In this document: positions 736 through 63,260 of the stretch, piece after piece
Layout: each line of letters starts with the position of its first letter
Position numbering within the stretch: the first letter of the stretch is position 1
DNA from: Candidatus Babeliales bacterium
GTDB lineage: Bacteria > Babelota > Babeliae > Babelales > JANWKD01
Assembly: GCA_963722255.1 (NCBI GenBank)
Contig: CAVRJO010000001.1
Span: 128,001 to 192,000, forward strand
Direction of reading: 5' to 3'
Length of the DNA: 64,000 bases
Notes under the pieces: generated by a model
The model's database searches: none
The model's input: only the letters and a program-made list of their open reading frames with translations
What the model was told of the DNA's origin: nothing
Made by a program: the position numbers and the translations under genes

Positions 736-772
736 AACTGGCCTGTCAGGCATTTCTGAAGGAAATGACTGG
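736..772 (-). repeat. tRNA 3'-trailer hairpin repeat (TGGCCTG family)
   Basis: aactggcctgtcaggcatttc-tgaag-gaaatgactgg; near-identical to the tRNA-Val trailer at 57902-57937. Confidence 0.8.
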
Positions 773-844
773 TGCCGAGGAGTGGAATTGAACCACCGAC
801 ACTGTGCTCTTCAGGCACATGCTCTACCACTGAGCTACCTCGGC
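770..844 (-). tRNA. tRNA-Phe (GAA)
   Basis: Reverse complement GCCGAGGTAGCTCAGTGGTAGAGC..CTGAAGA..GGTTCAATTCC..CTCGGCACCA; cloverleaf with encoded CCA. Confidence 0.97.
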
Positions 845-5451: not shown

Positions 5452-7849
5452 TTATGAATATCTCTTCAAAAACGGAATAACCGAATCAGGATTTAATGAT
5501 AACGATGTTATACCTAAATCAACTAAGAACTGGGCAAATTCAGGATAATCTGATGGCGCTTGACCACAAATACCTATTGGTTTTTTATGACGCAATGCAC
5601 CTTCAATAACCATTGCACACATTTTTTTCACTGCCTGATCTCGTTCGTCAAAAAGAGGTGCAAGAAGCGCCGAATCTCTATCAACGGCAAGAGTAGTTTG
5701 TGTCAAATCATTTGATCCAATCGAAAATCCATCAAAAAGCTTACAAAATTCATCAATGAGGAGAACATTTGATGGTATTTCAACCATCATATAAATTTTC
5801 AAACCATTATGACCTTGAACAAGCCCATACTTCTTCATAACCGTTATCACTCGCCAAGCTTCATCAACGGTTCTAACGAAAGGAATCATAACAATAATAT
5901 TGGTAAGGCCCATAGTATCTCGAGCTTTTTTTAATGCAGCACATTCAAGTGCAAAAGCAGGCTCATACAATGGATTATAATAACGAGATGCGCCGCGTAA
6001 TCCTAACATCGGGTTACTTTCTACGGGTTCAAAAAACGAACCACCAAGTAAATCTCGATATTCATTCGTTTTAAAATCAGAAAAACGTACTATAACAGGA
6101 TGAGGATAAAATGCCGCGGCAATAGATCCGACACCTTGGGCTAAAGAATCAATAAAAAAATCTTCACGTGTAGCGTAAGCGCTTGTTAAAAGATCCAGCT
6201 CATGAATAATTTTTACGTCCTTAATAACAGCGTTTTGAGTAAATGCCATTGGATGAGCTTTTATTGTGTGCGCTATTATAAATTCTACGCGCGCCAGACC
6301 AACTCCAGATACAAAAGGCAATTGACACACCACAAAAGCATTATTTGGATCAGCAATATTAACCAGTATTTCTTTTGGTGGCTTTACAAGTTTTGTTGTA
6401 TCAATTTCTGAAATGGTAAAAGGTATCTGACCATTATAAACAAATCCTTGTGCGCCCTGGCTACAATCTAAGGTAATTATGTGCCCATCTTTTATTAAGG
6501 TAAGCGAATTGGCTGCGCCTACAACAGCAGGAATACCCAATTCTCTGACTTACAATTGCTGCATGGCATGTTCTCCCACCTTCTTCGGTTACAATACCGG
6601 CCGCTTTTTGCATCAAAGGAACCCAATCGGGATCTGTCATTTGAGTAACTAAAATGTCTCCCTCATTGAAAATGGCTGCATCTTTTGCGCTTTTAATGAT
6701 ACGAGCTTTTCCTGATACTATTTTTGTACCAACACTTTGCCCTTCAACAAGAATCTGTTGCGCAGCATCTTTTTTATGAGCCTCTTGCAAAGAATAAAGT
6801 TGCATAAAAGCACTCTGCTTCTTTAAGGAATGTACCGTTTCCGGACGCGCTTGAACAATATAGAGAGAACCATCTAATCCATCTTTTGCCCATTCTATAT
6901 CCATAGGCGACCAAAAACCATTGAGTTGCGTATAATAGTCCTCAATGAGCACAATATTTTTTGACAGCTCTTGTATTTCGGAGTCAGTTAAACAAAATCT
7001 TTGAGCATCAGATTGTTCAACAGGCACCCATTCAACTTTTTTTTGCTCAGTTGCATAGATTAGTTTTTTTCTCTTAGAACCTATCACTTTTTTTATAATG
7101 GGATTAAATCCCTCTTTAAGCGTTGTTTTAAAAACACGATACTCATCAGGATTAACAATGCCTTGAACCACAGCTTCGCCAAGTCCATACGATGCATCAA
7201 TCATAATTAAATCTTTAAAACCTGTTTCAGTATCCAATGAAAATGCAACGCCGGAAACAGCTAAATCTGAACGCACCATTTTTTGTACAACAATTGAAAG
7301 CGCTATATCAAGATGATCAAAGCCTTTTGTTGAACGATACATAATTGCTCTATCGGTAAATAATGAGGCAAAACATTTTTTACATGCCTCTATCAACTGT
7401 TTTTGACCTTGAATATGCAAAAAACTTTCTTGCTGTCCTGCAAATGATGCTCCAGGAAGATCTTCCGCGGTTGCTGAAGAACGAACTGCAACATCAACTT
7501 CATCAGTATGATATTCTTTTGAAAGCTCTTGATATGATTGAGCTATTTCATCAAATAAATCTGAAGGCATCTCTGCTTTACAAATGAGTTCTCGAACTTC
7601 TTTCGCTTTTTTAGTAAGACTGGATAAATCATTAAGATCTATCGAGTTTACTATTTTTTTTATGAGCGGTGCCAGACTATTATAATCTAAATAATGCCGG
7701 TATGCTCGAGCAGTTATTGCAAAACCGTCAGGAATTTTAACTCCTTTCTGAGTCAAATATTGAATCATTTGACCAAGAGATGCAGTTTTACCACCAACTA
7801 ATGGACTATCATGTATACCCACTTGATGTAGCGATTTAATATATTCCAT
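5452..7849 (-). CDS. ppsA: Phosphoenolpyruvate synthase, split by one frameshift near 6545
   Basis: GGKTASLG, AVRSSATAEDLP, GGRTCHAAIVS in ORF 6461..7849; ESNPMLGLRGASRY, SIGSNDLTQ, GICGQAPSD in ORF 5452..6540. Confidence 0.93.
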
Positions 7850-8832: not shown

Positions 8833-9996
8833 ATGAAACGTTTTTTCCAATCCCAAACTATAGCTACTGGACTCGCTATTTTTTCTATGTTTTTTGGCGC
8901 AGGTAATTTAATTTACCCTCTTAATGTTGGATTTATTGCCGGTGCAAAAAATCTCTGCGCTATTTCAGGCTTTATGGTTACCGGTGTTCTTCTACCTTTA
9001 TTGGCACTCATAGCAATAATACTTTTTAATGGTGATTATCATGAGTTTTTCAATCGACTTGGTAAAATACCAGGCGCACTCTTTATTTTATTCTGTATGC
9101 TTATTATTGGGCCTCTTTTTGCAATTCCTCGGATTGTTACTGTTGCACATATCATGATTGCACCTTTCATAGGAAATATTTCATTGCCAATTTTTACTTT
9201 TCTTTTCCTTGCATTAACTTTTCTTGGGACGTATAAAGAAAGTCGCATTATTAATCTACTTGGTAATGTGATAAGTCCACTCTTGCTTGTTTCTCTTATA
9301 ATTATTATTGTAAAAGGTCTTCTTTTCCGTGGAGAAATGACACAAGAAATTACATCAAGTTGTCTGGCACTCTTTTGGGAAAGTATTAAGATCGGTTACA
9401 AAACACTCGATATGCTTGGAGCCATTTTCTTCTCTTCTATTGTGATCACTATCTTAAGAGAAAAGCTTAAAGACCAATCAGAAAAATCGCTAAAAAAATT
9501 AGCGATTATGGGTTTAAAAGCAGGTCTTCTAGGGGTAGCCTTACTCGCAATTGTTTACCTTGGAATGAGCTATTTGGGTGTATTTCATGGTGCTGGACTT
9601 GGCCATCTCAATGAAGGAGAGCTTTTTAGTGCACTTTCATTTAGAATTCTTGGCTCACATGGTGCAATTATTATTGCTCTTGCTGTTTTAATGGCGTGTT
9701 ATTCGACAATTGTTGCACTGACTGCTGTAGTATCAGAATATGTTCAGAAAACCATTTTTATCAATAAAATAAACTATATACAAGCATTACTCATAGTGTT
9801 GGGTATAGCAGCAGTTGTTTCTAATTTTGGATTAAGCAAAATTTTAAAATTTTCTGGCCCTTATATTGACGTTTGCTATCCCGCACTTATAGTACTTGTG
9901 TTCGTTAATATTGCTTATAAATTATTTGGTTTCAAACCAGTAAAAATACCAGTGTTAGTAACCCTATTAGTCTCTTCATTATTTTATTTATGGTAA
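8833..9996 (+). CDS. brnQ: Branched-chain amino acid:cation symporter (LIVCS)
   Basis: GLAIFSMFFGAGNLIYP, IGPLFAIPR, GYKTLDMLGAIFF. Confidence 0.92.
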   Translation: MKRFFQSQTIATGLAIFSMFFGAGNLIYPLNVGFIAGAKNLCAISGFMVTGVLLPLLALIAIILFNGDYHEFFNRLGKIPGALFILFCMLIIGPLFAIPRIVTVAHIMIAPFIGNISLPIFTFLFLALTFLGTYKESRIINLLGNVISPLLLVSLIIIIVKGLLFRGEMTQEITSSCLALFWESIKIGYKTLDMLGAIFFSSIVITILREKLKDQSEKSLKKLAIMGLKAGLLGVALLAIVYLGMSYLGVFHGAGLGHLNEGELFSALSFRILGSHGAIIIALAVLMACYSTIVALTAVVSEYVQKTIFINKINYIQALLIVLGIAAVVSNFGLSKILKFSGPYIDVCYPALIVLVFVNIAYKLFGFKPVKIPVLVTLLVSSLFYLW

Positions 9997-10067
9997 AGAA
10001 GGTTGTAAAAAATTAGATTTTTCTTACACTAAATGCAGAATAACTTTATTACATCGAAAGTCTACCT

Positions 10068-10232
10068 ATGATTACAAAGAATTTTTTATTGGTTGTTGTT
10101 TGTTTTGGAATTGCAATGACTTTAACAAGCTGCAAAAAATCAAGACAAGAAATTGTTGAAGTTCAAGAAAAAAGAATTTCAGGACCTTTATCAGATAGCT
10201 CTATTGAATGGTCAGAGTCTGATTATAAATAA
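10068..10232 (+). CDS. Small lipoprotein (54 aa, below ORF-track cutoff)
   Basis: MITKNFLLVVVCFGIAMTLTS-CKKSRQE..; lipobox LTSC; followed by a terminator. Confidence 0.7.
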   Translation: MITKNFLLVVVCFGIAMTLTSCKKSRQEIVEVQEKRISGPLSDSSIEWSESDYK

Positions 10233-10235
10233 CTA

Positions 10236-10278
10236 AAAAAAAAGAGGATGAATTATAATAATAACTCATCCTCTTTTT
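10236..10278. terminator. Intrinsic terminator hairpin
   Basis: aaaaagaggatga..tcatcctcttttt. Confidence 0.75.
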
Positions 10279-10295
10279 CATGAAAATTTTTTTTG

Positions 10296-10315
10296 AAAAA
10301 AAACGCTTTCGCGTT
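10296..10315 (-). terminator. Terminator directly after the tmRNA-like RNA
   Basis: Minus strand AACGC-GAAA-GCGTT followed by a T run. Confidence 0.75.
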
Positions 10316-10614
10316 GGAGGTAATAACATGGTTTTCACCACGCCCCTTTTACGCTCAAGTCTCTACATGCTTAGTCTTTATACCTACATATACCTCCTAA
10401 AGACCGGTAACAGTATAAGTCACATGGTTTGTTCCTTTGTTCATGATACTAATCATGTAAACCTCTCATGAACATCTTACTTTTATTTACCCCTATTAGT
10501 CTAAATTAGTAAGAGAATCTATTAACTAATCGGTGAAGTTTCTTTTACGGAAAACTTCTAAAATCCGGCATGCTGCCCCAAACGTAATGGGAAAGCTTTC
10601 GCTTTTACCTCCAA
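10314..10614 (-). ncRNA. tmRNA-like structured RNA with non-canonical tRNA-like domain and no recognisable tag ORF
   Basis: 10-bp closing stem TTGGAGGTAA/TTACCTCCAA. Helix 2: CCC-ATTACGTTTGGGG-CA-GCATGC with GCATGT-AGAGA-CTTGAGCGTAA-AA-GGG. pk1: CGGA/TCCG plus GAAGTTT/AAACTTC with the CG-TAAAA linker. pk4-like GGTCTTTA/TAAAGACT followed by the tmRNA signature GACTAAGCATGTAG. Confidence 0.75.
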
Positions 10615-10615
10615 A

Positions 10616-10724
10616 TTTTCAAAGAACTTTTTTGAGAAAAAGTGCAGTAATTAGAATTTCTTCTAGCTTCTCTACTCCCGTTCCTCTTATTTACAACTTT
10701 AGCATAAATATTTCTATTTGTCAA
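10616..10724 (-). promoter_or_regulatory. sigma70 promoter and boxA-like leader of the tmRNA-like RNA
   Basis: TTGACA (10719-10724), 17 nt, TAAAGT (10696-10701) with extended -10 TG; GTTCTTTGAAAA at 10616-10627. Confidence 0.75.
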
Positions 10725-10829
10725 GCAAAATTTGAAAATTGCATATTTTTCTCTGTAAACTCTAGAATTTTTGTCTAAAATCATGCTAGGTTAAAAAAAG
10801 CTAAGATAAAACTGCTTTATGGAGCTTAT

Positions 10830-11141
10830 ATGATAAAAAAGTGTATACTATTTTTATTGATTTGCATGAAAATACATGATTGTAGTTCAATGGGTAATAA
10901 CCGTAAAGATTCATCGGATGAAGATACATCTCAGCACGTCTACAATACTCGAGAGCTCTTCTCTTCAACTGAAATAAGTTTTTATGTTTCTCCTCCAACA
11001 AGTCCCCGAGACATAGTACCTACTAAACCTCACAAAAAACCAAACTGTTTTTTACAGTGCTTAAAAAAACTTTGTTGCTGTTTATGTTGTTGTAAAAAAA
11101 ATGACAAACGTCTCATTGTCAGTTATGACACTATTCAATAA
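10830..11141 (+). CDS. Secreted hypothetical protein with Cys cluster
   Basis: RBS ggag, signal peptide, CFLQCLKKLCCCLCCCKK. Confidence 0.7.
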   Translation: MIKKCILFLLICMKIHDCSSMGNNRKDSSDEDTSQHVYNTRELFSSTEISFYVSPPTSPRDIVPTKPHKKPNCFLQCLKKLCCCLCCCKKNDKRLIVSYDTIQ

Positions 11142-12825: not shown

Positions 12826-13944
12826 AACAATTTAAAAAAAGAGGAAGAAACGTTGAAAGGATTCCAACACTACAGGTAATAAAACATACGGTGCATGCAC
12901 CACATATACTGTTGCGCCAACATCGTGAACTTTTAATTTTTAATTTTTTTTCATTTTCAATTTCTAACCATGCACCCATAAGCAGCTGAGCGAAACTTAT
13001 CTTCATCTGATTATCGGGATAGAAAAAATTCTTCTGAAATAACAGTTTTTTTTGAGAATCATTCTTATTGTTTTCAATAAGCTGTGCAATGCGATAATAT
13101 TCTTGGGGAGATTTATTTTTTAATTCTTCAACTTTCTCTTGCTCGAGAGGATCGATGTATTACAAGCCTAAACCTCAAAAAAATAATGATGCAATTATTA
13201 TGAATGAGCTACGTGAAATTTATCAAGAAACGCCTTCCTATGGCTATCGGCGCATGACAGTAGCTTTAAGAGAAAATGGTTTTTTGGTTAATCATAAAAA
13301 AGTTTTTATGTTGCTTAAGATAGCGGGCATCCAGGCCATTTACCCTCGCAAAAAAACAACCATACGAAATCAGGGGCACAAAGTATTTCCTTATTTATTG
13401 CGTGGGTTGCTTATTAATCGACCAAATCAGGTTTGGCAAGTAGATATAACCTATATAAAAATACGGGGTGGTTTTGTATATTTGGTTTGCTTAATTGATG
13501 TTTTTAGTCGAAAAATCATGGGATGGAAATTGTCAATTTCTCTTGATACAGCGTTATGCATAGAGGCGTTCAATAGTGCTTTGCAACATGGTATTCCAGA
13601 AATTGTTAATAGCGACCAAGGATGTCAATTTACCAGTGCTCTGTGAGGTTTTTAATATAGCGTTCTTTTCCAGTATGCTTTATACCAAAAAATTGTTCTG
13701 CCAAAGCGATTATATCGATTTCAACATTATCTTCAACATCATGTGAATTCATTGAAGTCGAACCGGATGAATATAATTCCTCATCCAGATCTTTGATCAT
13801 GCTGATCTCTTTTTTCTTCACTGATCTTCTTAAGGTATCTTTCCATGATCCTTCTTCAGATGAATAACCAGGTTTTTCCAATTCCATGCTCATTAATCTT
13901 AATGAAATGAACAGGGAAATTATGAGTAGATTACTTATTTTCAT
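12818..13944 (-). pseudogene. Secreted hypothetical gene split by an IS3 internal fragment
   Basis: ORF 13630..13944 (..ERYIKNL) joins in frame to QEKVEELKNKSPQEYY..MKISFAQ (12818..13142) when 500 bp are removed. Confidence 0.8.
13143..13645 (+). mobile_element. IS3-family transposase OrfB internal fragment
   Basis: SRGSMYYKP..YGYRRM..PNQVWQVDITY..YLVCLIDVFSRKIMGW..NSDQGCQFTS; both ends and IRs absent. Confidence 0.9.
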
Positions 13945-57578: not shown

Positions 57579-57653
57579 CGGAGGCTGATGGGACTCGAAC
57601 CCACGACCTTCCGCGTGACAGGCGGACGCTCTAACCAACTGAGCTACAGCTCC
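57576..57653 (-). tRNA. tRNA-Asp (GTC)
   Basis: GGAGCTGTAGCTCAGTTGG..CTGTCAC..GTTCGAGTCCC..CCA; one extra base in the acceptor 3' strand. Confidence 0.93.
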
Positions 57654-57680
57654 AACTAAGATTATTCCACTATGGCGTCA

Positions 57681-57776
57681 GTTCTACTACGCTCTATGAG
57701 CTACGAAGAACAAGCAGAAAACTGGCCTGCCATTCGAAGTTTGCCAAGCCGGAAGGCCTGGATAAACGTAGAATGG
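57681..57776. repeat. Inverted pair of structured repeats behind tRNA-Asn
   Basis: gttctactacgctctatgagctacgaagaac .. actggcctgccattc..gaatgg. Confidence 0.75.
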
Positions 57777-57849
57777 CTCCTCGGGCTGGACTCGAACCAG
57801 CGACCTAACGATTAACAGTCGTTTGCTCTACCAACTGAGCTACCGAGGA
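57774..57849 (-). tRNA. tRNA-Asn (GTT)
   Basis: TCCTCGGTAGCTCAG..CTGTTAA..GGTTCGAGTCC..GAGGAGCCA, 76 nt. Confidence 0.97.
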
Positions 57850-57934
57850 ACAAATTTCAACTATTTCAAAAACTGGCCTACTTTATTATTGATATCGAAG
57901 AATGGCCTGCCAGTCATTTCTGAGGGAAATGTAC

Positions 57935-58010
57935 TGGTGGGCGGTACTGGACTCGAACCAGTGACCCCCAGTTTGTAAGACTGATGCTCTACCAACTGAG
58001 CTAACCGCCC
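57935..58010 (-). tRNA. tRNA-Val (TAC)
   Basis: GGGCGGTTAGCTCAG..CTTACAA..GGTTCGAGTCC..CCGCCCACCA, 76 nt. Confidence 0.97.
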
Positions 58011-61372: not shown

Positions 61373-63260
61373 ATCGGGTAGGAGCGAGTGATTAACTCGC
61401 GTCCTCCCACACCACCGTACGTACCGTTCGGTATACGGCGGTTCATGTCGATACTTTCGCGAGCATCTCATAATATCTTTCAACAAGACTTACAAGCCCT
61501 TGCTCTCGCCAATAAGCGAGGCCGAGGGCTTTGTTTATTTGTGGAGTATTTGCCAGCCGCCAGTATTTCTTGTCTGAGAATGCTATGCGTCCTGCCCATT
61601 TTCCTTCGATTCCTAGGTCTTTTAACTTTGCAAGCTTGGTTTTCCCTAACTTCCATTGTTTCAATAAACACATTCTCAATCTTCTGCGTATCCATTCGTC
61701 AAGTTCCTGGAGCACACTCTTTGTTTCGATAATACCGAAATATCCAATCCATCCAATGAGATACTCATTGAGCTTCTTCAGTCGTTCTTTCATAGATATA
61801 CCCCAATTGCGCTTCGTTAACTCGCGAATCTTCTCCTTAAACTTTATTCTGGTTTTGGGAGCGATTCGCAGCTTTACTTGCCAGCCAAAGGTGAATGAGA
61901 ATCCTAGGAACTTTCTTCTCGATGGATAGTCTATTGCACTCTTTTGTACATTTATATTGAGCTTCAATCGTTCTTGTAGAAACTTCATTATACTTGCATA
62001 CACTCTTTGTCCCGCTCGCTTGCTTGCTACGTAGATGTTGCAGTCATCGGCGTATCGAACAAAAGAGTGTCCTCTTTGTGTAAGTTCTTTATCAAGATCA
62101 TTCAGTATGATATTTGATAGCAGGGGACTTATTGGGCCACCTTGCGGTGTCCCGTCCTCTGATCTCACATGACATCCATTGAGCATTACTCCCGATTGCA
62201 AGTATTTGCGGATAATTGCGTGTATGCGTTTATCTTCGACATGTTGTGCTATTTTCGACATCAGTATGTCGTGATTTACACGGTCAAAGAATTTCTCGAG
62301 ATCGATATCCACCACAATTTTCTTTCCGTGTTGGATATAGGTTTGGGCTTTATGCACAGCTTGCCGTGCACTTTTGCCTGGTCTAAATCCATAACTGAAT
62401 TCTGAAAATGTAGCTTCAAATATTGGTGTCAAGACTTGTTGGATTGCCTGTTGGATAAAGCGATCAAGTACCGTTGGAATTCCTAATTCACGCACTCCAC
62501 CGTCTTGTTTCGGAATTTCGACTCGACGTACGGGAGCTGGTTTATAGGTTCCGTCAAGAAGCTCTTGTTTGATGCGATTCCAATGCTCATTCAGATATGG
62601 AAGCAGTTCATTGACCTGCATATTATCCACACCCGCCGAGCCTTTGTTTCTTTCCACTCGTTTGAGTGCCTTCTTGAGATTATCGTACTCTACCACTTTC
62701 TCCATCAGTTGATTATTATGATTTGCCAAGATATGTTTGTTGATTTGTGTCATAAGTTTGCTCAGTACCTCATCAGGACCTGGTAGAATTCACTACCGCC
62801 TCTCAGTGATGGTTCGATTTTTTTTTTCGATTTTCTACTTTCATTGCATTCTCGATGTACGTATCAATCATATCTTTATCGCTCATGTTCAGGCCTTCCC
62901 GATTTTTTTTTCGGTACTATGCCATCTGCTGACTTCTGTCCCTCAACCTCTATTTTCACAGAGGGTTGCCAACTTAGTCGGCGTGGAAACAGATCTCCCC
63001 GGGTAATTGCGCGCCCTTTCACCTCATCTACCTGCTCTATTTACTCTCGATAGTTTTGGCAACCATGGCTTTTGTCTTACTTGGCAGACTCATCCGCTAT
63101 CGCTAGCCTCGCATAGAGTTCGTATACCTCAGGCCAAGGTTTTGCTGCCGGCTTCCTTCAGATTTCACCTCGCGATGAACACCCTTGCCTTAGGCTAATG
63201 ACTTCGTTGCCTTCGTCATTCCGGACTTTCACCGGTAGGTCGCGCCCATGCCGGGCGCAC
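61373..63260 (-). mobile_element. Group IIC intron
   Basis: 5' GTGCGCCCGGCATGGGCG; domain V GAACCGCCGTATACCGAACGGTACGTACGGTGGTGTG; 3' CCTACCCGAT; inserted right after a terminator hairpin. Confidence 0.95.
61443..62753 (-). CDS. ltrA: Group II intron reverse transcriptase/maturase (no endonuclease domain)
   Basis: RELGIPTVLDR, GTPQGGPISP, RYADD, GWIGYF, WIRRRLR. Confidence 0.96.
   Translation of the reverse strand: MTQINKHILANHNNQLMEKVVEYDNLKKALKRVERNKGSAGVDNMQVNELLPYLNEHWNRIKQELLDGTYKPAPVRRVEIPKQDGGVRELGIPTVLDRFIQQAIQQVLTPIFEATFSEFSYGFRPGKSARQAVHKAQTYIQHGKKIVVDIDLEKFFDRVNHDILMSKIAQHVEDKRIHAIIRKYLQSGVMLNGCHVRSEDGTPQGGPISPLLSNIILNDLDKELTQRGHSFVRYADDCNIYVASKRAGQRVYASIMKFLQERLKLNINVQKSAIDYPSRRKFLGFSFTFGWQVKLRIAPKTRIKFKEKIRELTKRNWGISMKERLKKLNEYLIGWIGYFGIIETKSVLQELDEWIRRRLRMCLLKQWKLGKTKLAKLKDLGIEGKWAGRIAFSDKKYWRLANTPQINKALGLAYWREQGLVSLVERYYEMLAKVST

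What the first reader, a model, noticed from the sequence alone, without database searches (positions are those of the whole stretch)
10296..10724. tmRNA-derived RNA with a rebuilt tRNA-like domain and no normal tag ORF
Seen: a ~300-nt minus-strand RNA closed by a 10-bp stem. It has tmRNA helix 2 (GCATGC/GCATGT plus a long GU-rich helix), a pk1 pseudoknot with the conserved CG-TAAAA linker, two further candidate pseudoknots and pk4 ending in GACTAAGCATGTAG. Established: tmRNA needs G3.U70 for alanylation, a T-loop, an SmpB-binding D-loop region, NCCA and a tag usually ending in Ala-Ala. Here the acceptor-like stem GGAGGTA/TACCTCC has A3-U70, the D region is an AAAGC-GAAA-GCTTT hairpin, the T arm is GCGTGGT-GAAA-ACCATGT, no CCA is encoded and a terminator abuts the stem. 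After pk1 the candidate frames give only NRFSY* or DSLTNLD**, and that region can fold directly into a pk2-like pseudoknot, so the mRNA-like domain may be deleted. Pairings look maintained rather than decayed. Inference: a neofunctionalised, non-aminoacylated tmRNA paralog (e.g. ribosome-binding/hibernation or decoy RNA), or a radically divergent ribosome-rescue RNA.
Basis: partly seen in the sequence, partly recalled or inferred. Interest (0 to 1): 0.92.

Follow-up and report, generated by a model that had tools for sequence, protein, structure and literature searches.

The report
tmRNA-derived RNA without tRNA end
An intracellular Babeliales bacterium carries, beside its normal ribosome-rescue RNA genes, a separately transcribed copy that keeps the folded pseudoknot body of that RNA but has lost its ability to carry alanine and to encode a tag, yet is still kept in shape by selection, so it probably has a new, still unknown job.

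Summary
Window 10296-10724 (minus strand) is a stand-alone RNA gene: a sigma-70 promoter with an extended -10, a transcript of about 390 nt, and an intrinsic terminator. Its body is a tmRNA body. Rfam RF00023 matches model positions 23-340 at 31.2 bits, below the gathering score of 47, and ARAGORN makes no call.

The acceptor stem survives as GGAGGUA/UACCUCC with A3-U70. The T-loop is replaced by a GNRA tetraloop, and no CCA is encoded. The tag frame is still recognisable but has a stop at codon 3.

The genome also has two canonical tmRNAs and one smpB.

Homologues:
- Three other genomes of the same family; one of these is a short form.
- One genome of another Babeliales family.
- One metagenome contig.

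On six sequences, 96.7% of cells pair and 19 of 58 pairs changed on both sides, against 0-6 in slid controls.

Contigs from two metatranscriptome runs lie wholly inside the transcript.

Verdict: a selected, non-chargeable, non-coding descendant of tmRNA. Its function is unknown. My best guess is a mimic of the tmRNA body that binds the ribosome or a tmRNA-binding factor. The searches found no printed precedent for a cellular case.

The parts
10696..10724 (-). Sigma-70-type promoter: TTGACA, 17 nt, TG-n-TAAAGT (extended -10)
   Evidence: One search gives 10 of 12 matches with TG before the -10. A TTGAC(A/T) -35 with a TGn-extended -10 is also called upstream of the homologues in L011, L013 and L020. 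In L012 it is seen by eye only, as TTGACA / 18 nt / TG-n-TAACCT, and the scan does not call it.
10634..10686 (-). 5' leader hairpin capped by UAGAA-GAAA-UUCUA (GNRA tetraloop)
   Evidence: It appears in the minimum-free-energy and centroid folds. An equivalent leader hairpin with a GAGA loop folds in L016. By eye, L012 has GUAGA-GAAA-UCUAC.
10606..10612 (-). Closing stem P1, 5' strand GGAGGUA: relic of the acceptor stem with A at position 3
   Evidence: The resident canonical tmRNAs start GGGGGCG. GGAGG is also found in L016, L013 and G112.
10592..10605 (-). Hairpin A, AAAGC-GAAA-GCUUU, in place of the D-loop region
   Evidence: It is identical in L016. It is absent in L013 and G112.
10568..10591 (-). 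Helix 2, 5' strand (CCC, UUACGUUUGGG, GCAUGC)
   Evidence: Helices 1 and 2: 5 of 11 outer pairs changed on both sides, and the inner 6 pairs are nearly invariant.
10535..10567 (-). PK1: stem 1 CGGA/UCCG, stem 2 GAAGUUU/AAACUUC, with the linker UAAAAG between them
   Evidence: One search aligns it to PK1 of RF00023. Stem 1, read by eye, varies while keeping its pairing: CGGA/UCCG (window), CGG/CUG (L016), CGAAG/CUUCG (L011, L012), ACGAG/CUCGU (G112). It was not counted with a tool because the alignment register differs.
10496..10534 (-). Fossil tag reading frame, TD*LIDSLTNLD*
   Evidence: The homologous frames are given.
10475..10531 (-). H5-like helix enclosing the fossil frame, plus PK2 (loop UCUUAC pairs with GUAAGA)
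   Evidence: Helices 3 and 4: 4 of 8 and 2 of 6 pairs changed on both sides, with 92.5% and 100% of cells paired. Helix 4 was not part of the covariance model.
10422..10474 (-). PK3: hairpin UGUUCAUGA/UCAUGAACA, with loop ACAUG pairing with downstream CAUGU
   Evidence: Helices 5 and 6: 5 of 9 and 2 of 5 pairs changed on both sides. The RNA-library contig X3 carries a paired change at 10468/10444.
10374..10417 (-). PK4: GUCUUUA/UAAAGAC and UAUACU/GGUAUA, with loop AGGAGG
   Evidence: Helices 7 and 8: 100% of cells paired and mostly invariant. The AGGAGG loop is kept in the five sequences of the window's own family (L016 is counted there by likeness only; the short L013 has UGGAGGG). G112 has CCUCAGG instead.
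10344..10373 (-). UAA linker and helix 2, 3' strand (GCAUGU, CUUGAGCGUAA, GGG)
10326..10343 (-). Hairpin B, GCGUGGU-GAAA-ACCAUGU: relic of the T arm with the T-loop replaced by a GNRA tetraloop
   Evidence: L016 has GGC-GUAA-GCC, a change on both sides that keeps the pair. G112 has UGG-GAAA-CCA. The canonical T arm is CAUGGG-UUCGAUU-CCCAU.
10316..10322 (-). Closing stem P1, 3' strand UACCUCC, followed by AAC; no CCA is encoded
   Evidence: The canonical 3' end is CGCCUCC-ACCA. G112 has GCCUCC-ACC.
10295..10315 (-). Intrinsic terminator AACGC-GAAA-GCGUU followed by a T run
   Evidence: The same hairpin is present in L016.

Best explanation
This is an independently transcribed, structured non-coding RNA of about 390 nt. 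It descends from a full-length tmRNA (ssrA) gene by duplication within Babeliales (phylum Dependentiae).

What the sequence shows:
- The tRNA-like domain has been disabled and rebuilt. G3.U70 has become A3-U70, the T-loop is replaced by a GNRA tetraloop, the D-loop region is replaced by a GNRA hairpin, and there is no CCA.
- The tag frame is dead, with a stop at codon 3.
- Helix 2 and the ring of four pseudoknots are kept, by substitutions that preserve the pairs.

What is inferred:
- The RNA cannot be alanylated or delivered by EF-Tu/SmpB, so it does not carry out trans-translation.

Most likely mechanism, inferred and not tested:
- It acts as a non-chargeable mimic of the tmRNA body. It would occupy or titrate something that normally recognises that body: the 30S subunit around which the pseudoknot ring wraps, ribosomal protein S1, or RNase R. 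In that way it would tune ribosome rescue or ribosome availability beside the two working tmRNAs of the genome.
For: Origin from tmRNA:
- RF00023 matches locally over model positions 23-340.
- P1 matches the resident acceptor stem at positions 1-5 apart from G3 to A, and the 3' strand CCUCC is the same.
- The copy in G112 still ends GCCUCC-ACC.
- A fossil tag frame in the usual place after PK1 is still open in three relatives and begins A-N / A-Y in two of them.

Loss of the rescue function:
- ARAGORN makes no call for this RNA in any of the five homologues scanned: window, L011, L012, L013 and L020; L016 was not scanned.
- There is no T-loop, no CCA, and the 3:70 pair is A-U.

Selection on structure:
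- On alignment A4 (6 sequences, 58 pairs, pseudoknots included), 96.7% of cells pair.
- 19 pairs changed on both sides, against 0-6 in the six slid controls. 0 of 500 shuffles reach the observed values.
- Even within a genus there are changes on both sides that keep the pair: 4 between L011 and L012, and 2 between the window and L016.

A gene of its own:
- A promoter is called in 4 of 5 homologues with upstream sequence. A terminator is called in the window.

RNA evidence (weak):
- Two metatranscriptome runs from two studies each hold one contig that lies wholly inside the transcript: 10353-10563 and 10304-10586.
- The second contig, from a relative, carries paired changes at 10468/10444, 10528/10497 and 10532/10493.

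The working system is still present:
- The genome has two canonical tmRNAs (155 and 148 bits) and one smpB.
Against: - No function was tested. The mimic mechanism rests only on what the tmRNA body is known to contact; that knowledge is recalled, not taken from a call.
- No conserved neighbouring gene points to a partner. The genomic contexts differ between genera.
- Distribution is narrow. Strong matches occur only in G000, G003, G004 and G112, plus a short form in G001. These come from 151 genomes in one draw of the order and 151 in a second, overlapping draw.
- G001 has lost PK1-PK3, so either the ring is dispensable or that copy is decaying.
- The terminal domain is not conserved in genus g3. 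There is no P1 3' strand there, and no terminator is called in L011, L013 or L020.
- There are only six sequences from three lineages. The nested helices of A4 were fitted to a model built from four of them.
- The RNA-library contigs do not prove transcription, because DNA can be present in such libraries.
- The fold z-score of the G112 copy is only -1.53.
Confidence: 0.55

Rival explanations
1. It is a regulatory RNA that uses the stable tmRNA scaffold only as a carrier. It would act by base pairing or sponging through exposed conserved stretches. One candidate is the Shine-Dalgarno-like GGAGG in the PK4 loop and in P1, which could bind the anti-Shine-Dalgarno end of 16S rRNA or mimic it.
For: - AGGAGG in the PK4 loop is invariant in the four long sequences of the window's family; the short L013 has UGGAGGG.
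- P1 is literally GGAGG paired with CCUCC.
- The 16S rRNA of this genome ends GGAUCACCUCCUUUC.
- The short form in G001 keeps exactly P1, helix 2 and PK4 with GGAGG.
Against: - G112 has CCUCAGG instead of AGGAGG in PK4.
- Two G of the motif are paired inside PK4 (helix 7).
- GGAGG/CCUCC in P1 is simply inherited from the acceptor stem GGGGG/CCUCC of the canonical tmRNA.
- No target was sought or found.
Confidence: 0.2
2. It is a tmRNA pseudogene that is decaying slowly and has no function. The promoter and pairings would be leftovers.
For: - tmRNA pseudogenes and fragments are known. Hudson et al. 2014 (PMC4131195) mention duplicate calls that miss one gene end and fragments left by island integration; I read passages only.
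- G001 has a 200-nt internal deletion.
- Genus g3 lost the P1 3' strand.
- Distribution is narrow and patchy: 1 of 10 genomes in family f11.
Against: - 19 of 58 pairs changed on both sides with 96.7% pairing, including pseudoknot stems that were not in the search model.
- Pair-keeping changes continue within genera, after the tRNA-like domain was already rebuilt.
- Substitutions are about half as frequent in paired as in unpaired columns: 15 of 116 against 35 of 140 for the window and L016.
- Newly gained GNRA caps are kept through change, for example GAAA to GUAA with GGU/ACC to GGC/GCC.
- The promoter is kept in all five homologues that have upstream sequence.
- Contigs from RNA libraries cover the transcript.
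Confidence: 0.12
3. It is still a ribosome-rescue RNA of a very unusual kind. It would be charged or delivered by a non-standard route, or would work with a separately encoded acceptor piece as two-piece tmRNAs do.
For: - In genus g3 a frame that begins with GCA directly after PK1 is open: ANQLNDYSTNLSWFEEK* and AYQLNDSSTNLS*.
- G112 keeps ACC after the acceptor-like stem.
- The four-way junction has the topology of a tRNA-like domain.
Against: - The window and L016 have stops at codons 3, or 2 and 3, of that frame.
- The differences between L011 and L012 in the frame fall on first and second codon positions, and one removes the stop.
- The frame is buried in a helix and a pseudoknot that show paired changes.
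- Both strands of helix 2 lie in the standard order, so the gene is not permuted.
- No T-loop or G3.U70 is present in any copy.
- ARAGORN is silent on all five copies scanned.
Confidence: 0.05

Closest known systems
One-piece tmRNA (SsrA), Rfam RF00023
   Same: - A long helix 2 with the GCAUGC/GCAUGU core.
- PK1 with the CGUAAAA linker.
- Three further pseudoknots in the same order.
- GACUAAGCAUGUAG before the 3' strand of helix 2.
- A relic of the acceptor stem and a relic of the tag frame in the canonical places.
   Different: - A3-U70 instead of G3.U70.
- The T-loop and the D-loop region are replaced by GNRA hairpins.
- No CCA is encoded.
- The tag frame is interrupted.
- It has a 77-nt 5' leader hairpin and an abutting terminator.
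- It scores 31.2 bits against a gathering score of 47, and ARAGORN makes no call.
tmRNA pseudogenes and ssrA fragments left by genomic-island integration (Hudson, Lau and Williams 2014, PMC4131195; passages read)
   Same: An extra, non-functional-looking copy of ssrA beside a working gene.
   Different: Those cases lack one gene end or are 3' fragments. Here both ends are remodelled into new stable hairpins and the middle is intact. The gene has its own promoter and terminator. It is conserved across two genera of one family and a genome of a second family, with paired changes that keep the helices.
tRNA-like-domain-only mini-tmRNAs
   Same: A tmRNA reduced to one of its two functional halves.
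   Different: They are the opposite reduction. They keep the alanine-accepting end and lose the pseudoknots and the tag. This RNA keeps the pseudoknot body and loses the accepting end.
Phage tmRNA-like RNAs with a tag-coding half but no tRNA-like domain
   Same: tmRNA-like RNAs without a recognisable tRNA-like domain and with a promoter of their own.
   Different: Those are in marine T4-like phages and keep a tag-coding domain. This one is chromosomal in a cellular genome, has no usable tag, is not permuted, and gave no match in the phage collection.
Two-piece (circularly permuted) tmRNAs of alpha- and beta-proteobacteria and cyanobacteria (family names recalled)
   Same: Non-standard tmRNA gene architectures that standard detectors can miss.
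   Different: Permuted genes place the acceptor piece before the coding piece and still give a chargeable tRNA-like domain. Here both strands of helix 2 are in the standard order, and no T-loop or CCA lies anywhere in the transcript.

Membership tests
tmRNA (RF00023, functional ribosome-rescue RNA) | Acceptor stem with the G3.U70 alanine identity pair | tested here: not met
   P1 is GGAGGUA/UACCUCC, which gives A3-U70. GGAGG is likewise found in L016, L013 and G112. The canonical copies in the same genome have GGGGGCG/CGCCUCC.
tmRNA (RF00023, functional ribosome-rescue RNA) | T arm with a T-loop (GGUUCGAUUCC-type), and a D-loop region that forms the tRNA elbow | tested here: not met
   In place of the T arm there is GCGUGGU-GAAA-ACCAUGU. 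In place of the D-loop there is AAAGC-GAAA-GCUUU. The RF00023 match leaves out model positions 1-22 and 341-374.
tmRNA (RF00023, functional ribosome-rescue RNA) | 3' terminal CCA, encoded or able to be added | tested here: not met
   P1 is followed by AAC and then the terminator hairpin. Whether CCA is added after transcription cannot be tested with these tools.
tmRNA (RF00023, functional ribosome-rescue RNA) | Open tag reading frame after PK1 that ends in a protease-recognition tail | tested here: not met
   The window's frame reads TD*LIDSLTNLD* and L016's reads T**LIDSLTNLD*. The frame is open in L011, L012 and G112, but without signs of selection at the protein level.
tmRNA (RF00023, functional ribosome-rescue RNA) | Long helix 2 joining the tRNA-like domain to the pseudoknot body | tested here: met
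   Helices 1 and 2: 17 pairs, 5 of which changed on both sides.
tmRNA (RF00023, functional ribosome-rescue RNA) | PK1 upstream of the frame and PK2-PK4 downstream | tested here: met
   PK1 is aligned by Infernal, and its stem 1 varies while keeping its pairing, by eye. PK2-PK4 are helices 3-8, with 92.5-100% of cells paired and 14 of 41 pairs changed on both sides.
tmRNA (RF00023, functional ribosome-rescue RNA) | Reaches the Rfam gathering score, and is called by ARAGORN | tested here: not met
   31.2 bits against 47. ARAGORN makes no call.
tmRNA (RF00023, functional ribosome-rescue RNA) | Alanylation by AlaRS and binding by SmpB and EF-Tu | not testable with these tools
   This needs biochemistry. 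Only the absence of the identity elements is shown here.
Two-piece (permuted) tmRNA | The acceptor piece is encoded upstream of the coding piece, so the helix 2 strands are permuted | tested here: not met
   The 5' and 3' strands of helix 2 lie in the standard order around the pseudoknots. The leader has no T-loop or CCA.
Decayed tmRNA pseudogene | Substitutions indifferent to base pairing; no maintained expression signals | tested here: not met
   96.7% of cells pair and 19 of 58 pairs changed on both sides. Promoters are kept. The sample is small: six sequences.

The most novel reading that the evidence does not exclude
This would be the first cellular example of a tmRNA paralogue that has been converted into a different kind of RNA. 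It would be a non-chargeable ribosome- or factor-binding regulator built from the helix 2 and pseudoknot-ring scaffold. In these intracellular bacteria it would tune ribosome rescue or ribosome availability alongside two working tmRNAs.
Probability: 0.3. Interest if true: 0.85.

Novelty: new variant of a known kind. Interest (0 to 1): 0.72.

Why it matters
tmRNA is regarded as a single-purpose molecule whose two halves, the tRNA-like domain and the tag template, define it. The pseudoknot ring is usually treated as an accessory that helps folding.

Here a lineage has discarded both defining halves of a duplicate copy, yet keeps the 'accessory' body under selection, with its own promoter. If the body has a function of its own, such as binding the ribosome, S1 or RNase R, or acting as a scaffold, that would say something new about what the pseudoknot ring does in ordinary tmRNA. 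It would also add a rare documented case of a housekeeping RNA taking on a new function.

It further shows that standard annotation (ARAGORN, Rfam gathering scores) is blind to such derivatives.

The caveat is a narrow distribution in uncultured Babeliales and no functional data.

Tried and rejected
- **Other Rfam families.** None matches beyond chance-level scores in 9900-11100. All other matches have E of 0.088 or more, and most lie on the neighbouring bidirectional terminator.
- **Recent copy of the resident ssrA.** Rejected. The element aligns poorly with both canonical genes, which have GAGCAUGUCG and ACUAAACAUGUAGC where the element has the consensus strings.
- **Phage or mobile origin.**
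  - blastn in distant mode against the phage collection gave no match.
  - A probe for the fossil-frame region in viral contigs gave 27 loci. None matched the covariance model beyond the probe itself; the best was 14.7 bits over 26 nt.
- **Wider homologue hunt.**
  - One strict pattern scan of genome contigs found only the two genus-g3 genomes.
  - One scan of metagenome contigs found one contig.
- **Covariance-model search hits.**
  - Of the 27 further loci checked, 26 are canonical tmRNAs by ARAGORN or Rfam.
  - The 27th is L020, the G112 copy of the element, with no call by ARAGORN or Rfam.
  - A separately fetched hit in G106 (L047) lies in a coding region and is spurious.
- **Tree of the element and canonical cores.** FastTree on 228 columns of A5; columns with 30% or more gaps were dropped and all 34 rows kept. 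The five long elements cluster at 0.99, but with one long-branch canonical tmRNA (L028) inside the cluster. The alignment was fitted to the element's own model, so I draw no conclusion on donor or order of events.
- **Synteny.** The element's neighbours are shared only within genera. Pfam annotation of the neighbours gives no recurrent partner.
- **Small ORFs.** The SD-like AGGAGG-UAU-AUG in PK4 gives M*, MLYKD*, MSIKD*, MAIKD* or no AUG in the different copies (by eye). It is not a conserved peptide.
- **Sequencing runs.** One DNA run (X1) holds two 151-nt pieces identical to the window and may be the source sample. It is not independent support.
- **Earlier notes of this scan.** Nothing was found for this genome or this sequence.
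Full report
**What is at the locus**

On the minus strand of window 10296-10724 lies a compact transcription unit.
- The promoter scan finds TTGACA / 17 nt / TAAAGT with a TG extension at 10724-10696.
- It finds a terminator-like hairpin, AACGC-GAAA-GCGUU followed by a T run, at 10315-10302.
- No protein-coding gene is involved. The flanking genes are a convergent branched-chain amino-acid transporter (8833-9996, +) and unannotated ORFs upstream.
- Folding 10690-10296 as RNA gives -105.5 kcal/mol with a z-score of -3.91; 0 of 100 shuffles fold as well.
- The fold shows a leader hairpin, an 8-bp closing stem, a GAAA-capped hairpin, a long helix, a second GAAA-capped hairpin and the terminator.

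**Is it tmRNA-like?**

- At gathering thresholds Rfam finds nothing here, and ARAGORN finds four tRNAs but no tmRNA in the window.
- With permissive thresholds the only meaningful match in 9900-11100 is RF00023. It scores 31.2 bits (gathering score 47), E 1.5e-10, at 10342-10596(-), covering model positions 23-340 of 374. That is helix 2, PK1 and the downstream pseudoknots, without the two ends that make the tRNA-like domain.
- The signature strings GCAUGCCG, CGUAAAA and GACUAAGCAUGUAG are present.

**The ends are a remodelled tRNA-like domain, not foreign sequence**

The genome's own canonical tmRNAs begin GGGGGCG... and end ...CAUGGGUUCGAUUCCCAUCGCCUCCACCA.

| Feature | Canonical tmRNA | Element |
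|---|---|---|
| Acceptor / closing stem | GGGGGCG / CGCCUCC, with G3.U70 | GGAGGUA / UACCUCC, with A3-U70 |
| T arm | CAUGGG-UUCGAUU-CCCAU | GCGUGGU-GAAA-ACCAUGU (window); UGG-GAAA-CCA (G112) |
| After the stem | ACCA | AAC then terminator (window); ACC (G112) |

- Positions 1-5 of the closing stem equal the acceptor stem except G3 to A. This turns the alanine identity pair G3.U70 into A3-U70.
- The copy in genome G112 has GGAGGC/GCCUCC followed by ACC.
- Reading hairpin B as the relic of the T arm, with its loop swapped for a GNRA tetraloop, is inference from position and residual similarity.
- That G3.U70 is the main AlaRS determinant is established knowledge that I recall.

**The tag frame is fossilised, not deleted**

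Directly after PK1 the homologous frame reads:

| Sequence | Frame |
|---|---|
| L012 (G004) | ANQLNDYSTNLSWFEEK* |
| L011 (G003) | AYQLNDSSTNLS* |
| G112 | SFQVTDYSTNLA* |
| Window | TD*LIDSLTNLD* |
| L016 | T**LIDSLTNLD* |

- The A-N start and the -NLA end resemble the tags of canonical Babeliales tmRNAs listed by ARAGORN. The ancestor was therefore a real tmRNA.
- The differences between L011 and L012 fall on first and second codon positions, and one removes the stop.
- The whole stretch is now enclosed in a helix and pairs with downstream sequence as a pseudoknot.
- I read it as a structural remnant.

**The genome still has the working system**

- RF00023 finds two full-length tmRNAs 1.8 kb apart, at 155.4 and 147.8 bits. 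Their tags are ANFGLAAPALALS* and ANAVKGDSSLAHLGYVSANAFGTWSAAAAA**.
- There is one smpB.
- The other four genomes of the family have one canonical tmRNA each.

**Homologues and distribution**

- BLAST of the element against 60 relatives hit G003 and G004 (same family, another genus; 69% identity over about 250 nt) and a 54-nt piece in G001 (same genus).
- Record titles name G003 and G004 as Candidatus Babeliales bacteria.
- A metagenome contig, L016, carries a close relative with the same leader, closing stem, both GNRA hairpins and the same terminator.
- A covariance model built from four sequences (R1) was run over 151 genomes of the order.
  - Scores were 272-276 bits in G000, G003 and G004, and 152.6 bits in G112 (another family).
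  - G001 scored 25.8 bits; it is a short form that keeps the promoter, P1, helix 2 and PK4 but lacks PK1-PK3.
- The remaining matches scored 54 bits or less.
  - 27 loci were checked: 25 are canonical tmRNAs by ARAGORN, L046 by Rfam, and one (L020) is the G112 element.
  - G112's own canonical gene (L048) and a spurious coding-region hit in G106 (L047) were fetched and checked separately.
- Within G112's family, 1 of 10 genomes has the element.
- A second draw of 151 genomes gave no new strong hit.
- Neighbouring genes are shared only within genera.

**Is the structure under selection?**

I wrote a structure with helix 2, the H5-like helix and three pseudoknots on alignment A4 (six sequences).
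- 96.7% of 307 cells form standard pairs, and 19 of 58 pairs changed on both sides. The covariation score is 0.297.
- Slid controls give 28-47% pairing and 0-6 such pairs.
- 0 of 500 shuffles reach any observed measure.
- The three pseudoknot stems (helices 4, 6 and 7) were not in the model that made the alignment. They pair in 100% of cells, with 4 of their 17 pairs changed on both sides.
- RNAalifold on four sequences independently found 16 of 60 pairs with changes on both sides that keep the pair.
- Pair-keeping double changes are also seen between members of one genus: 4 for L011 and L012, and 2 for the window and L016. Paired columns change about half as often as unpaired ones, 15 of 116 against 35 of 140.
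- Hairpin B changes GGU-GAAA-ACC to GGC-GUAA-GCC between the window and L016.
- Stem 1 of PK1 varies while keeping its pairing, by eye. It could not be counted because the register differs.

Limits: there are six sequences from three lineages, the nested helices were fitted to the model, and the shuffle count is not a probability.

**Expression**

- Two runs on record as metatranscriptomes, from different studies, each contain one contig that lies entirely within the predicted transcript.
  - X2: 210 nt at 10353-10563, with 7 differing letters and 2 gaps.
  - X3: 282 nt at 10304-10586, with 30 differing letters and 7 gaps.
- X3 comes from a relative. It carries paired changes at 10468/10444, 10528/10497 and 10532/10493, which keep helices 5 and 3.
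- This is a weak hint of a discrete stable RNA, not proof, because such libraries can contain DNA.

**Interpretation**

*Shown.* This is a tmRNA-derived gene with its own promoter. It lacks every element needed for alanylation and tagging, while its helix 2 and pseudoknots are maintained by selection across at least three lineages.

*Inferred.* It does not perform trans-translation and has another role.
- I favour a mimic of the tmRNA body that occupies the 30S subunit or titrates a protein that binds the body (S1 or RNase R). Those are the known contacts of that part of tmRNA, as I recall them.
- I put about 0.85 on 'functional tmRNA-derived non-coding RNA' and about 0.3 on this particular mechanism.
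- A scaffold for exposed GGAGG motifs is the main rival. The 16S rRNA ends in the canonical CCUCC, but G112 lacks the loop motif.
- Pure decay fits the G001 deletion and the degraded ends in genus g3, but not the covariation.

**Literature**

- Four full-text searches found no description of a cellular tmRNA derivative lacking the tRNA-like domain.
- Passages of Hudson et al. 2014 (PMC4131195) mention only pseudogenes missing one end and fragments from island integration.
- Earlier notes of this scan describe phage RNAs with a tag half but no tRNA-like domain, and the reverse mini-tmRNAs. Those are unchecked AI notes.
- Supplements were not consulted.

Noticed in passing
Own genome outside the window: G000:C1:795232-795599(-) and G000:C1:797383-797822(-) (loci L001, L002): There are two complete canonical tmRNA genes 1.8 kb apart. 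Their tRNA-like domains are identical and their PK1 nearly so, but their tags differ: ANFGLAAPALALS* and ANAVKGDSSLAHLGYVSANAFGTWSAAAAA**. Two ORFs of about 200 aa with hydrophobic, signal-peptide-like N-termini lie between them. The four other genomes of the family have one tmRNA each.
   Followed up: partly
L013 1494-1604(-) (genome G001, same genus): This is a short form of the element. The promoter, the GGAGGUA/UACCUCC stem, helix 2 and a single pseudoknot (PK4, with GGAGG in its loop) are kept. About 200 nt, PK1 to PK3, are missing. It folds with a z-score of -2.93.
   Followed up: partly
window 62892-63179 (-): Rfam matches group II intron domains D1-D4: RF02001 at 127.4 bits and RF01998 at 60.9 bits.
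   Followed up: no
window 13155-13646 (+): A 163-aa ORF has HTH_21 and integrase-core (rve) domains. It looks like a fragment of an IS3-type transposase about 2.5 kb from the element.
   Followed up: no
window 5452-6540 (-) and 6461-7849 (-): These are two overlapping ORFs. The second carries only the N-terminal and mobile domains of pyruvate phosphate dikinase. This may be a split or frameshifted ppdK.
   Followed up: no
window 10238-10279: A 19-bp AT-rich hairpin flanked by A and T runs lies between the element and the convergent transporter gene. It looks like a bidirectional terminator, and it attracts several chance Rfam matches.
   Followed up: no
window 770-844 and 57580-58010 (-): tRNA-Phe, and a cluster of tRNA-Asp, tRNA-Asn and tRNA-Val.
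   Followed up: no
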